The position numbers were made by a program. A stretch of DNA of 64,000 nucleotides from Magallana gigas (Eukaryota), in the NCBI RefSeq assembly GCF_963853765.1, contig NC_088857.1, forward strand, positions 54,312,001-54,376,000, read 5' to 3'. Positions 50,101 to 54,200 of this stretch are shown here, one piece after another. How positions within the stretch are numbered: position 1 is the stretch's first letter; every line of letters starts with the position of its first letter.

Positions 50101-51133
50101 GTGTTCTCTATTAACTACCGTGCATCAACACGTGCAGTTATGCTTCGTTTGAGACTTGGGTTCAGAAGATAAGATCTCTACAATACGTTTTCAGTTTTGA
50201 GAGGAAAGTTTCATTTACAGGATAAACAAAATCATCGTAATTGGGAATAGTTTATGGCTGCGGGCATCACATCCAATGGCCGTGGAATTTCTCAGGATCT
50301 ATGGAAGACTTTTTAGACGTCCGGTCTACCCCTAAGTTGTCGTCTGCCGTTCTGGTGACTGCGGTGTTTGTCCACGTGATCGGATTCTCGTCCATCCATT
50401 GGTCGGACGGTGGTGTGTTCTATACCGGACTTTGGAGGGCCTGTTTCCTGACCGTGCCCGGGTTTCACTGTAGACAGGATCCGTACTCAGCAGGTGAGTC
50501 ATATCACAACAGGTGCGCGTGAATCCACCACTATCCCGGGAATACCCATCTGATAGAGTCGGTGTCTGCACCATGTTGGTTTAGCAATAAACATTATTTC
50601 TATCGTCATAACGAAACTTGAAATAAGCTCTACATTAAAAGCTTATATCTAGCATAAAAACGTCTTTATTGCTATCATCTGTATAAAAAGATAAAACAAC
50701 TCTTCTACAAATAAATATTTATTTGTTATTAAAACAAATACATGATTGTATATCAGTATCTATTAACTGAAATCGTTCTCAAATATTTCTATAAAGCAAA
50801 ACATGATACATGTATGTTTAATAATAAAGGCAATGATGACATACTCAAATAAATCTAATTTGACCTTTACCAATGACCTAAACCCTTTACTGACTTGTAA
50901 TTACGACATTGACCTTTCACAGAGGGATATAAACTTTTCTCTGTTTAGTTTAACAGAAGTGTTTTTAGTTTACGGTTGCTGGTAGACAGACAGAGAGACA
51001 TTCGGACAGACGGACGGACAAAAAGACAGAGAATGGCAGACTTCCAGCTGGAAATATTAGGAAAGCTATCACCTTGAAATACAAATTATCAACAGTTACT
51101 ACTATACCACTGGTGATATACCACCCCACCCCC

Positions 51134-51210
<77 letters not shown>

Positions 51211-54200
51211 GGTGAAGGGGAGGGTTCAGATTGCTATTACAACCGTCATCTCCATTTATATAAAGCAATGTTCCTATTAGGTGGCGCTCTATAATGTCCT
51301 CCGGCTCAGGTTTGATAAATGTTGGTTTTAAAGTTTGTATCCCCCCAGAGGAACCGTATAACACAGAATTAAACAACTGTTACTTGTGAAAAAGAAGATG
51401 GCGGGGTTTAGAAGCGCTGGGACTCTGGTAAAGATCGTCTTCATTTTGGTCATCTCCGCCGTCTTATTCCACTTGATTGGTTTCTCCACGGTCAGTTGGT
51501 CACACGCCCACTCGGCCGATCAGTATGGGCACCGCCATATTACGTATCTCGGGCTCTGGATTGCTTGCGATCCGCACTGTTTCCGCTTATCACCAGGATT
51601 TGGTAATTAGATCATTAATTAATTATGAAATTAAATTATCAGTGGTATTTTAAGCTTTTTTATTATAAAAATTGATATGGAGACGAAAATATTAGAAACG
51701 ATTCCGATTTTTCGCAAAATGATTATGTTTTTTCTGACTCAAAGATTGATTTGGAATCGGTTTTGACTTTCGTTTAATACGGTAATCATTTGAGTATATT
51801 AGTTTTGTGTTACGATTGTCAAATAACGTATCTAGCCTTTGTCAGGCACGTAGCAACGGGTTGGGAAGGGGGGGGGGGGGGCTGGGGGAGCCAAGTCCTC
51901 CCTTTTTTGATAATATGTGACTTTTTAAAATTTTTATTATAAGAAAAATACGCGTACAAACATTTTAACCCCTCAACTTTTTGCCTGACCCATCCAATTA
52001 AAAAAAACAACGGTACGTCTGTTAGTTAGAGATATCAAAGGTTTGCAGCATTACACACTGTAGGGATATATCTCCTCTCACCTAAAGGGAACGCTCACGT
52101 GTAGGCGTGTATAAAGAATCTCCTCATCCATCGTGGTTTAGCCAATTAAATGGTGAAAAGAACGGTTAAAGGGGGGGGGGGAGAGAAAAAGTCTCCCTTT
52201 CTTTGAAAGAGAAAGACAGAAAGATTTTACCAGTTGAAAACCTTGCATGTTGCATATAACCATATGACCTTTACCTCTCTTTTGTTTCCACAGGTTGGTT
52301 TGGGGCTACACAGGCGCTTGAGACTATTGGATTAGTCGCTGGGTTTATCGGATTAATCCTGATCGTACTGTACATCTTTATCAACAAACTAGCAGGCAAC
52401 CGGACACTCTTTATCACTAGCCTGGTCGCAGTAGGAATAGCCGGTAAATGAACTTTTTAATTACATAATCTCTGTTATATATATATACTAATATATTTAT
52501 TTAACTTTCCCGTCTTTAATCAACATAAACACATTCACAAAACGACCAGAGGTGAAATAGAACATCAGGCAAATAATTGGTTGTTACCTGGTCACGTGAC
52601 GAACTGGTTCCCCTCAATTAATTTACATAGATTGCTCACACTTCACTGAGGATTCACTCGTATAAATGACAAGTATGGACCGTGTTTCTTAATTTGTGAA
52701 GGCAAAACATTCGTGGAAATCGACGAATGTAAGGTATCCACGAAAGTCACGAAAATTGAGCCACCTCCATATTTTAGTGATCTTAGTCATAGGCGTTCAA
52801 AGGAAAATTTCGTAATTAATACAGTTTGATCGGTCAGCTCCAGATAAAGTAGCTAAATATACTAGAGGTGTTAAAAATAATCTTAGTCTTAATGGTTGAT
52901 AGAAATACAGGTATCTTGTTGGACCACAAGGATTTTCTAAAATCTCATCCACACAGTGGTTCTATCGTTGGAACAATTGACATTGATAAATAGCGGTCTC
53001 AGTCTATAGTCTCATTTTATGCTAATAAAGTGTTAGCAACGATAGGTAAATTTAGTTACAAGAATATGAACATCACATTGTGATCCTAAGGATGTTAGTA
53101 ATAGACGATGCATAAACAGCAAGTTTGTCTTGTGTATTGTTTCTGATGTCTTTCTCTTTGATATACCCGCATTGCAATTTCTAGTTTCACATCACTGATA
53201 ATTTTTCTATGATGTACCCCTATTTCTATATCTTATAACACGTACAGATCTTCTACAATCCAATCTTTCTCTTTGATATACCCGCATCACTGATTAATTT
53301 TCTATGATTTATATACCCCTATTTCTATTTCTGATAACACATACCGATTTTCTACAATCCAATCTTTCTGTTTGATATACCCGTATTGCAGTAACTAATA
53401 CCACACACCGATCTTCTCTACTTCAGCCGGATCTACGCTGCTGGGGGTCGTTATCTACGGTGTGCACGGCAGCGCCCTCTCGTGGTCGTTTGCTCTGGCC
53501 GTTATAGGTGGACTATTGTACCTAGTGACAATGGCGCTGATGCTTGTCCACGTCAGCAAACCCAACGCCATCTGAGGAGTCAGCAGGAGCATATGTCACC
53601 GATAAAGTGCCGAGGTCTTTATAGCTCTCCCCTAACACATCTCACTGGAAGAACATTTAAAAGTGCACAGAAAATACCCAACAGCGAAAATGAATAGAAA
53701 ATGATGTATATACTTCAGGAATATATGTATATATTGAAAATTTATAAATTATGAGCGAGAGTTCTACATACGTGTTTGTTTTCAATGCAAAGAAATTATT
53801 AGCATGATATATTGAGTGATTGCATATTTCTAACCCACAGCCACCGCTCTACCACTTCACTGACTCAGTCAATAAATTCACAACTACATCAACTTATGAA
53901 AGTATATCAACTACTATATTGCCATCCCATCATTCAGGTAACCCCACCAGCCTGTCCTTTTTTAATAGTAACACCGTTATTTTGCCTGTCCTTTATTATA
54001 AACTGTAGTAACACTGTTATTTTCCCTGCCCTTTATTTAAGTATTACCGTTATTTTGCCTGTCCTTTATTTTAGCAACACCGTTATTTTCCCTGTCCTTT
54101 ATTATAGTAACACCGTTATTTTGCCTGTCTTTTATAATAAACTGTAGTAACACTGTTATTTTGCCTGTTCTTTATTATAAACTATAGTAACACCGTTATT

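What the first reader, a model, noticed from the sequence alone, without database searches (positions are those of the whole stretch)
50301..53575. Claudin-like gene with two alternative first exons that swap TM1 and extracellular loop 1
Exons 1a and 1b each have their own ATG, TM1, W-GLW-C-C loop and phase-1 donor, but only one set of downstream exons exists. This is the architecture of vertebrate claudin-10a/b and claudin-18.1/.2, where loop 1 sets selectivity and tissue role. The loops differ in length and composition (1b is His-rich). If both are used, this is convergent isoform design in an invertebrate junction-type protein.
Basis: partly seen in the sequence, partly recalled or inferred. 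Interest (0 to 1): 0.65.

Follow-up and report, generated by a model that had tools for sequence, protein, structure and literature searches.

The report
Oyster claudin-superfamily gene, two first exons
A small four-helix membrane protein gene of the Pacific oyster has two interchangeable first exons, so it can make two proteins that differ only in the first membrane helix and the main outer loop, a design known from vertebrate claudin-10 and claudin-18 and already annotated in a related oyster.

Summary
Exon 1a (50301-50493) and exon 1b (51398-51602) each start with ATG, encode TM1 plus a W-GLW-C-C loop, and end at a phase-1 GT donor. Only one exon 2 (52294-52443) and one exon 3 (53427-53575) exist in the window.

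The window is Magallana gigas. A 163-aa record on a 916-nt contig reads 1a+2+3 without a break, so 1a does splice to 52294. The NCBI M. gigas protein of 167 aa reads 1b+2+3. Crassostrea virginica LOC111114826 carries both forms as isoforms X1 and X2, identical over 101 of 101 shared residues. Both exon types also occur in Saccostrea and Ostrea.

Exon 1a is 76-86% conserved among oysters and 1b 54-60%, so 1a is no relic.

Both forms fold confidently as claudin/TARP-type four-helix proteins. By sequence the protein is a divergent PMP22/EMP/MP20/claudin-superfamily member. It is not a classic claudin: it has a short ECL2 and a 5-residue tail with no -YV end.

The His-rich 1b loop is specific to M. 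gigas. Separate promoters, tissue use and a junction role are untested.

This is a new member of a known kind, of modest interest.

The parts
50301..50493 (+). Exon 1a (first coding exon, upstream). Encodes the N-terminus, TM1 and ECL1 with W34, GLW43-45 and C48-x8-C57. Phase-1 donor GT at 50494-50495. An AG at 50294-50295 behind a pyrimidine run could be an acceptor for a non-coding 5' exon.
   Evidence: Identical to residues 1-64 of P0007. 76-86% identical among four oyster genera.
51134..51206 (.). (CT)36.5 microsatellite in the 1a-1b interval, about 190 nt upstream of the 1b ATG.
   Evidence: Any role in a 1b promoter is inference only.
51257..51265 (+). TATATAAAG, a TATA-like word 133-141 nt upstream of the 1b ATG. 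Candidate core promoter of the 1b transcript.
   Evidence: Read only. Not tested against chance in this AT-rich DNA. Inference.
51398..51602 (+). Exon 1b (first coding exon, downstream, lying inside the intron of the 1a transcript). Encodes the N-terminus, TM1 and ECL1 with W34, GLW52-54 and C57-x3-C61. Phase-1 donor GT at 51603-51604.
   Evidence: Identical to residues 1-68 of the NCBI M. gigas protein P0018. 54-60% identical among oysters and 47% to the Tegillarca orthologue.
52294..52443 (+). Shared exon 2: end of ECL1, TM2, the intracellular loop and the start of TM3.
   Evidence: No second copy in the window.
53427..53575 (+). Shared exon 3: rest of TM3, a 5-residue ECL2, TM4 and the short tail ...SKPNAI. 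Stop TGA at 53573-53575.
   Evidence: No second copy in the window.

Best explanation
This is one Magallana gigas gene, the orthologue of C. virginica LOC111114826. It encodes a small tetraspan protein of the PMP22/EMP/MP20/claudin superfamily.

The gene has two first coding exons in tandem and one set of downstream exons.
- A transcript that starts upstream carries 1a. Its strong donor (CAG|GTGAGT) joins the exon 2 acceptor at 52294. Exon 1b is skipped because it is a first exon with no productive acceptor.
- A transcript that starts in the 1a-1b interval carries 1b and joins the same acceptor.

Both junctions are phase 1 and make the same Gly codon. The two proteins have 163 and 167 residues. 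They share TM2-TM4 and differ in the N-terminus, TM1 and the beta-sheet-forming ECL1. The conserved differences are the Cys spacing (C-x7/8-C in 1a, C-x3-C in 1b) and the length of the stretch before GLW.

Shown: the exon anatomy, the 1a-exon 2-exon 3 join in a contiguous ORF, both forms in the annotation of other oysters, orthology of each exon type across four genera, and the claudin-type fold of both forms.

Inferred: separate promoters. Also inferred is that swapping ECL1, the main outer face in this superfamily, changes what the protein contacts outside the cell. I think this protein is more likely a PMP22/EMP/MP20-like adhesion or organiser tetraspan than a pore-forming classic claudin. 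The duplication arose before the four oyster genera split. 1b looks like the ancestral exon and 1a like the derived, now tightly constrained one.
For: Anatomy.

One set of downstream exons, and 1a similar to 1b at E = 3e-7.

1a usage:
- P0007 (163 aa, longest contig 916 nt, 19 member sequences) reads 1a+2+3 with one residue different from the window. The genomic span is 3275 nt, so the ORF cannot be unspliced genome.
- P0008 and P0009 (contigs of 904 and 1318 nt) are the same form at 94-97% in exon 1.
- Of the 13 hits, 6 are spliced 1a-type full lengths, 1 is the O. edulis 1a+1b-fragment model, and 6 are read-through into the intron, which is uninformative.

1b usage: P0018 (NCBI, M. gigas) reads 1b+2+3.

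Same locus, two isoforms: C. virginica LOC111114826 X1 (1b) and X2 (1a) are identical in 101 of 101 shared residues, and so are the S. cucullata X1 and X2.

Constraint: 1a is 76-86% identical among oysters, 1b 54-60%, and the shared exons 72-80%.

Exon tree: the 1a clade has support 99/98 and the 1b clade 91/86.

No productive inclusion of 1b after 1a: the only pyrimidine-rich AG just upstream of the 1b ATG, at 51347-8, leads to TGA after 13 codons.

Fold:
- AF2 mean pLDDT is 95.7 (1b form) and 92.3 (1a form), each with 4 helices and 3-4 ECL1 strands.
- Foldseek on the PDB gave 119 matches at E <= 0.001 for each form. The top ones are TARP gamma-2, GARLH4 and claudin-15/-19, with TM-scores of about 0.7-0.8.

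Family:
- 54 of 76 aligned relatives match PF00822 at E <= 0.001.
- The Tegillarca orthologue passes the cut-offs of PF13903, PF00822 and PF10242.
- The best solved sequence is lens MP20, 9cbv_A, at E = 3.6e-4.
Against: No transcript-type record of the 1b form was seen. All 3 full-length spliced records from the 'lgn' source are 1a-type, and the 1b records come from genome annotations. So 1b use rests on gene models plus conservation.

I saw only proteins and contig lengths, not the contigs. A processed retrocopy could in principle also give an unbroken 1a+2+3 ORF.

Promoters and transcription start sites were not tested. The TATA-like word was read by eye.

The M. gigas proteins themselves do not reach any Pfam gathering score: P0007 has no match, and P0018 scores 18.5 against 29.1. 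Taken exon by exon, the best is E = 0.016.

The tree does not join 1a to 1b. 1a sits on a long stem (1.73) with weak neighbours, so duplication of 1b versus capture of a paralogue's first exon is unresolved.

Both AF2 alignments contained both exon types.
Confidence: 0.8

Rival explanations
1. Only the 1a form is really made. Exon 1b is the old first exon, now little used or decaying, and is kept in databases by gene prediction.
For: All 3 full-length spliced 'lgn' records are 1a-type and none is 1b-type. 1b evolves faster (54-60%) than 1a (76-86%) and than the shared exons (72-80%). Its donor TTG|gtaatt is weaker than that of 1a. The His count and loop length of 1b vary between species.
Against: 1b keeps its ATG, an open frame, TM1, W-GLW-C-x3-C and the phase-1 end in Magallana, Crassostrea and Saccostrea. 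A fragment of it is kept in Ostrea. The 1b exons form a clade that tracks the species. The 1b form folds with pLDDT 95.7, and its loop blocks score 93-96. NCBI lists it as isoform X1 in two species and as the only form in M. gigas.
Confidence: 0.12
2. Exon 1a is a relic of a partial duplication, or it belongs to another gene and never joins 52294.
For: An old UniProt model, K1QVM7 (P0005), joins 1a to 44 upstream residues and then runs into the intron. Six of the 13 hits read through the 1a donor.
Against: P0007, P0008 and P0009 join 1a to exons 2 and 3 in unbroken ORFs on contigs of 904-1318 nt. RefSeq X2 models do the same in three genera. 1a is at least as conserved as the shared exons. The first 44 residues of K1QVM7 are not in the window: the best hit is E = 1.5. 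The upstream gene is an HSP70 with its own stop.
Confidence: 0.02
3. The architecture is as described, but the protein is a true paracellular, septate-junction claudin. The two loops would then set different ion selectivity, exactly as in claudin-10a/b.
For: It has the claudin fold; TMq to mouse claudin-15 (4p79) is 0.82 for the 1a form. The W-GLW-C-C signature is present. After the second Cys, 1a has the conserved charged stretch R/L-Q/R/E-D-P/A-Y, and 1b has none. In claudin-10, ECS1 decides charge selectivity (PMC6862131, passages).
Against: ECL1 has only 33-38 residues and ECL2 about 5. The C-terminal tail has about 5 residues and ends NAI, IQG or VQG, not in a PDZ-binding -YV (the classic-claudin values are recalled). 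The nearest solved sequence is MP20, not a claudin. The top fold matches are TARP and GARLH auxiliary subunits. The net loop charge of both forms is near zero in M. gigas, with K+R = 2 and D+E = 2 in each.
Confidence: 0.2

Closest known systems
Vertebrate claudin-10a / claudin-10b (CLDN10 exons 1a and 1b)
   Same: There are two alternative first coding exons. [quoted passage not shown] The oyster gene has the same layout.
   Different: This gene is not an orthologue and not a classic claudin: the loops are shorter and there is no PDZ tail. The oyster loops do not show the strong opposite charge of 10a and 10b. Selectivity and tissue use are unknown here. The duplication is seen only in oysters so far, so the origin is probably independent.
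Vertebrate claudin-18.1 / 18.2
   Same: Lung and stomach isoforms come from alternative promoter usage (PMC8548597, passage read). That the isoforms differ in exon 1, hence in TM1 and ECL1, is recalled.
   Different: Promoter-specific tissue expression is not shown for the oyster gene.
C. virginica LOC111114826 isoforms X1 and X2 (RefSeq models), and the S. cucullata and O. edulis equivalents
   Same: These are direct orthologues. X1 is the 1b type and X2 the 1a type, with an identical shared part. The architecture is therefore already in a public annotation.
   Different: In the protein collection searched, M. gigas has only the 1b form from NCBI. Its 1a form appears only in unnamed contig-derived records. 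I found no paper naming these loci: one search gave 0 papers.
PMP22 / EMP / lens MP20 (LIM2) branch of the superfamily
   Same: The size is similar (about 160-170 aa) and the tails are very short. The best sequence match among solved structures is MP20, 9cbv_A, at E = 3.6e-4. Relatives match PF00822.
   Different: The M. gigas protein is below the Pfam cut-off. ECL2 is shorter still. That the alternative first exons of vertebrate PMP22 are non-coding is recalled.
TARP gamma-2 / GARLH4 (LHFPL4) / GSG1L auxiliary subunits
   Same: These are the top structural matches, with TM-scores of about 0.7-0.8. PF10242 is passed by the Tegillarca orthologue.
   Different: Sequence identity is 13-19%. The long cytoplasmic tail of TARPs is absent. 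No receptor partner is known or was tested.

Membership tests
PMP22/EMP/MP20/claudin superfamily (PF00822, PF13903) | Four transmembrane helices, with a beta-sheet built mainly from ECL1 | tested here: met
   The AF2 models of both forms have 4 helices plus 3-4 ECL1 strands and one bridge residue in ECL2. Mean pLDDT is 95.7 and 92.3. Foldseek matched TARP gamma-2, claudin-15 and claudin-19 with TM-scores of 0.7-0.8.
PMP22/EMP/MP20/claudin superfamily (PF00822, PF13903) | W-GLW-C-C signature in ECL1 | tested here: met
   It is present in both 1a and 1b. W, G, L, W and the first C are at least 90% conserved in the 76-sequence alignment.
PMP22/EMP/MP20/claudin superfamily (PF00822, PF13903) | Pfam score at or above the gathering cut-off | tested here: inconclusive
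   M. gigas records: P0007 has no match and P0018 scores 18.5 against 29.1. C. virginica X2 scores 26.6 against 26.7. The Tegillarca orthologue passes, at 40.4 against 29.1 and 39.2 against 26.7. 54 of 76 relatives match PF00822 at E <= 0.001. Window exons taken alone reach E = 0.016 at best. Membership therefore rests on linked homology and fold.
Classic tight-junction claudins | Long ECL1 (about 50 aa) and an ECL2 of about 15-25 aa (values recalled) | tested here: not met
   ECL1 has 33-38 residues. About 5 residues lie between TM3 and TM4.
Classic tight-junction claudins | Cytoplasmic tail ending in a PDZ-binding -YV (recalled) | tested here: not met
   The tail after TM4 has about 5 residues and ends ...SKPNAI. 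The orthologues end IQG, VQG or LKR.
Classic tight-junction claudins | Forms junction strands or paracellular barriers or pores | not testable with these tools
   This needs localisation and permeability assays.
Alternative-first-exon ECL1 swap (CLDN10a/b type) | Two first coding exons, each with its own ATG, TM1 and ECL1, in the same phase, and one set of downstream exons | tested here: met
Alternative-first-exon ECL1 swap (CLDN10a/b type) | Both mature forms exist | tested here: met
   The 1a form occurs as unbroken ORFs on contigs of 904-1318 nt (P0007-P0009) and as X2 models. The 1b form occurs as NCBI models in three species. For 1b I saw no transcript-type record.
Alternative-first-exon ECL1 swap (CLDN10a/b type) | Separate promoters with different tissue use | not testable with these tools
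   No read or transcription-start data for oysters were at hand. The TATA-like word at 51257-51265 was read by eye only.
Alternative-first-exon ECL1 swap (CLDN10a/b type) | The isoforms differ in function (selectivity or partner) | not testable with these tools
   Only conserved sequence differences were seen: Cys spacing of 7-8 against 3, and the DPY(S/T)A stretch in 1a.

The most novel reading that the evidence does not exclude
Oysters independently evolved the claudin-10/-18 solution: one tetraspan scaffold with two promoter-linked TM1-ECL1 cassettes. The derived cassette, 1a, is held more tightly than the rest of the protein (76-86% against 72-80%), which suggests it has acquired a specific conserved extracellular partner or junction role. 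The ancestral cassette, 1b, evolves fast and changes its His and charge content between species, which suggests an environment-facing or rapidly adapting role. If the two forms prove to be tissue- or stage-specific with different barrier or adhesion properties, this would be a convergent, experimentally tractable case of loop-swapping in a lophotrochozoan.
Probability: 0.3. Interest if true: 0.5.

Novelty: new member of a known kind. Interest (0 to 1): 0.3.

Why it matters
The finding shows that swapping TM1 and ECL1 through alternative first exons, known from two vertebrate claudin genes, also occurs in a distant branch of the same fold in molluscs. There it has been kept across four oyster genera.

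It also gives a practical correction. In the collection searched, the M. gigas NCBI protein set holds only the 1b form, while the better-conserved 1a form appears only in unnamed contig records.

The unequal constraint on the two cassettes points to where function should be looked for. The finding does not open a new class of mechanism, and the isoforms are already modelled in RefSeq for C. virginica.

Tried and rejected
- **Exon-by-exon Pfam:** only sub-threshold hints, with 1b against Claudin_2 at E = 0.016 and exon 3 at E = 0.86. This is not enough for family assignment.
- **A third first exon or a second exon 2 or 3 in the window:** none found. The other hits were at chance level and several contain stops.
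- **K1QVM7's upstream 44 residues as a lead to an upstream coding exon of 1a:** they are not in the window (best E = 1.5). The model also ends in intron read-through, so I rejected it as a guide.
- **Other records with two first-exon modules before one shared part:** I searched the 164 stored proteins with local HMMs. Only the O. edulis X1 model has this layout. P0040 and P0091 are whole-gene tandems. This says nothing on whether other bivalves have two first exons.
- **Exon-1 tree to decide whether 1a arose from 1b:** unresolved.
- **Literature:**
  - claudin + 'alternative first exon' + invertebrate gave 1 paper, which was irrelevant.
  - claudin + oyster + Crassostrea gave 111 papers; the 15 listed are food or peptide studies.
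  - The locus names gave 0 papers.
  - claudin-like + septate junction + mollusc gave 6 papers, none on this gene to judge by title and abstract.
  - claudin + exon duplication + alternative first exons gave 34 papers holding at least 2 of the 3 terms. The 10 listed show no invertebrate case.
- **Not used:**
  - Genome contigs holds only bacteria and archaea.
  - The phage, plasmid and E. coli collections are irrelevant here.
  - No complex prediction was made, because no binding claim is made.
- **Joined model:** Full-length work used database records as returned.
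Full report
**What is in the sequence**

The stretch 50301-53575 on the + strand holds four coding pieces with canonical splice signals (translations; contexts).
- Exon 1a runs from the ATG at 50301 to 50493 (CAG|gtgagt).
- Exon 1b runs from the ATG at 51398 to 51602 (TTG|gtaatt).
- Exon 2 is 52294-52443, behind ttttgtttccacag.
- Exon 3 is 53427-53575 and ends in TGA.

Both first exons end one base into a codon. With exon 2 both give GGT (Gly). Each first exon encodes a short N-terminus, a hydrophobic TM1 ending in H-x-IGFS, and a loop with W, GLW and two Cys.

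In a tblastn of the four exon peptides against the whole window, 1a and 1b matched each other at E = 3e-7. Nothing else came near (next best E >= 0.1). Exons 2 and 3 have no second copy (whose output was cut in the middle).

**How the searches were made**

Full-length analyses used database records exactly as the searches returned them.

**Whose gene it is, and whether both first exons are used**

Exon 1a found 13 proteins at E <= 0.01 among 17 candidates.
- Six are unbroken full-length proteins of the 1a type:
  - P0007 has 163 aa, comes only from the 'lgn' source, has a longest contig of 916 nt and stands for 19 member sequences. It is 100% identical to 1a.
  - P0008 and P0009 have 162 aa, on contigs of 904 and 1318 nt.
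  - Three are RefSeq isoform X2 models, from Saccostrea cucullata, Ostrea edulis and Crassostrea virginica.
- One is the O. edulis X1 model.
- Six run on from 1a into the intron (P0005, P0006, P0010, P0013-P0015). They are collinear with genomic DNA and say nothing about splicing.

P0007 reads ...DPYSA-G-WFGATQ...GIA-A-GSTLL.... That is 1a+2+3 of the window, with one Met/Val difference. The genomic span is 3275 nt, so an ORF of this kind on a 916-nt contig must be spliced. The only other possibility is a retrocopy, which I could not exclude, because I saw proteins and contig lengths only.

Exon 1b found one protein among 9 candidates: the NCBI and UniRef 'uncharacterized protein [Magallana gigas]', P0018, of 167 aa. 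It is 1b+2+3 of the window. So the window is M. gigas.

A search with P0018 gave 12 proteins among 691 candidates. They include C. virginica LOC111114826 isoform X1 (1b type) beside its X2 (1a type), and S. cucullata X1 (1b type). In the alignment the two isoforms of C. virginica are identical in 101 of 101 shared residues, and so are those of S. cucullata.

The upstream neighbour is an HSP70 gene that ends ...EEVD* at 47008.

One asymmetry runs against my reading. All 3 contig-derived full-length records are 1a-type and none is 1b-type. Use of 1b thus rests on annotation models and conservation.

**Conservation**

Over the exon-1 part, 1a is 76-86% identical between M. gigas and the other three genera. 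1b is 54-60% identical. The shared exons are 72-80% identical.

1b is closer than 1a to the single Tegillarca granosa orthologue (47-52% against 25-33%). Its N-terminus (MAGF.SA..VK) recurs in more distant relatives.

In a tree of exon-1 segments, the 1a exons form one clade (support 99/98) on a long stem with very short inner branches. The 1b exons form another clade (91/86). The link between the two clades is unresolved.

So both exon types predate the split of the four oyster genera. 1b looks ancestral and 1a derived, and 1a is now under tight constraint. I cannot say whether 1a arose by exon duplication or was taken over from a lost tandem paralogue.

The conserved differences between the cassettes are these:
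- The Cys spacing is C-x7/8-C in 1a and C-x3-C in 1b.
- The stretch before GLW differs in length.
- 1a has a conserved D-P/A-Y-S/T-A end.

The His-richness of 1b (5 His) is peculiar to M. gigas. The C. virginica and S. cucullata loops have 3 and 2 His.

**What kind of protein it is**

By sequence:
- Exon by exon, Pfam gives only hints.
- The full-length M. gigas records stay below the gathering scores, and C. virginica X2 misses PF00822 by 0.1 bit.
- The Tegillarca orthologue passes Claudin_2, PMP22_Claudin and L_HMGIC_fpl.
- A profile of ten orthologues found 492 representatives at E <= 0.001 and 108 at E <= 1e-10.
- Of 76 aligned relatives, 54 match PF00822 and 38 match PF13903 at E <= 0.001.
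- Against solved structures by sequence, the only real hit is lens fibre MP20 (9cbv_A, E = 3.6e-4).

By fold:
- AlphaFold2 models of both forms are confident: pLDDT 95.7 for the 1b form and 92.3 for the 1a form. Each has four helices and an ECL1 sheet.
- Foldseek matched TARP gamma-2, GARLH4, GSG1L and claudin-15 and -19 at TM-scores of about 0.7-0.8, with 119 matches at E <= 0.001 for each form.

The gene is thus a divergent member of the PMP22/EMP/MP20/claudin superfamily with the claudin fold. It is not a classic claudin. ECL1 has 33-38 residues, ECL2 about 5, and the tail after TM4 about 5 residues with no -YV end (the classic-claudin values are recalled). 'Junction-type' is not shown.

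**How it most likely works**

Transcripts that begin upstream include 1a. Its consensus donor joins the strong acceptor of exon 2.

Exon 1b lies in that intron and has no productive acceptor. The one pyrimidine-rich AG just upstream of its ATG (51347-8) would put a TGA 13 codons on.

Transcripts that begin between 1a and 1b carry 1b. A (CT)36 run and a TATA-like word at 51257-51265 (read by eye) lie in that interval. Separate promoters are inference.

The result is two proteins with the same TM2-TM4 and a different TM1 and outer sheet. Throughout this superfamily ECL1 is the main outer contact surface. In claudin-10 the same swap reverses charge selectivity (PMC6862131, passages). In claudin-18 the isoforms follow alternative promoters (PMC8548597, passage).

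I therefore expect the two oyster forms to differ in what they bind or seal outside the cell. Given the MP20-like sequence and the tiny tail and ECL2, an adhesion or organiser role seems more likely than a selective pore.

**Novelty**

The design is known from vertebrates, and it is already modelled as isoforms X1 and X2 in RefSeq for C. virginica.

I found no paper on it:
- Searching the four identifiers gave 0 papers.
- The searches showed no invertebrate case in their listings.

In the collection searched, the M. gigas 1a form has no NCBI record. I rate this a new member of a known kind, of modest interest.

**Left open**
- Promoters, tissue use and function.
- Transcript evidence for 1b.
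- Whether bivalves outside oysters have two first exons.

Noticed in passing
window 44270-47008 (+): A multi-exon HSP70 gene lies directly upstream on the same strand. It reads [22 protein letters not shown]... and ends ...GGPTIEEVD with a stop at 47008. The piece 45275-45844 matches PF00012 at E = 4e-81. About 3.3 kb separate it from exon 1a.
   Followed up: partly
P0012 (O. edulis LOC125647783 isoform X1, 207 aa): This RefSeq model joins 1a to an internal point of 1b (from ...AVLFHLIGFS on) and then to the shared exons. It thus has two loop modules and a half TM1. It is the only record with this layout among the 164 stored proteins. In M. gigas no AG precedes the equivalent point. It may be a model artefact or a non-productive transcript, but it shows that O. 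edulis keeps a 1b exon.
   Followed up: partly
window 51134-51206 and 51257-51265: A (CT)36.5 microsatellite and a TATATAAAG word lie between exons 1a and 1b, just upstream of the 1b ATG.
   Followed up: no
window 53190-53383: A 99-nt unit is repeated twice (86% matches). It ends about 40 nt before the exon 3 acceptor, inside intron 2.
   Followed up: no
window 53966-54451 and 55754-56304: Two related minisatellite arrays (units of 33-40 and 73 nt, 13-16 copies) lie downstream of the gene. They create long spurious ORFs on both strands.
   Followed up: no
P0005 (UniProt K1QVM7, 134 aa): This old M. gigas model attaches 44 residues that are not in this window (best E = 1.5) to the in-frame stretch upstream of the 1a ATG. 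It then reads through the 1a donor into the intron. It is probably a mis-prediction.
   Followed up: partly
window 50241-50300: The frame of 1a is open for 20 codons upstream of its ATG, and an AG at 50294-5 follows a pyrimidine run. A non-coding 5' exon spliced in here is possible. All orthologue models start at the MEDF/MEGF Met.
   Followed up: no
window 58410-59264 (+): A Ser-rich open frame of 284 aa with no Pfam match. It may be an exon of the downstream neighbour.
   Followed up: partly
window 34891-35034: This is the only run of N in the window (144 bases), far from the finding. It was left untouched.
   Followed up: no
P0040 (361 aa) and P0091 (272 aa), representatives: Each holds two complete copies of the family module in tandem (N-C-N-C). 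This suggests that family members sit in tandem arrays, which some gene models fuse.
   Followed up: no
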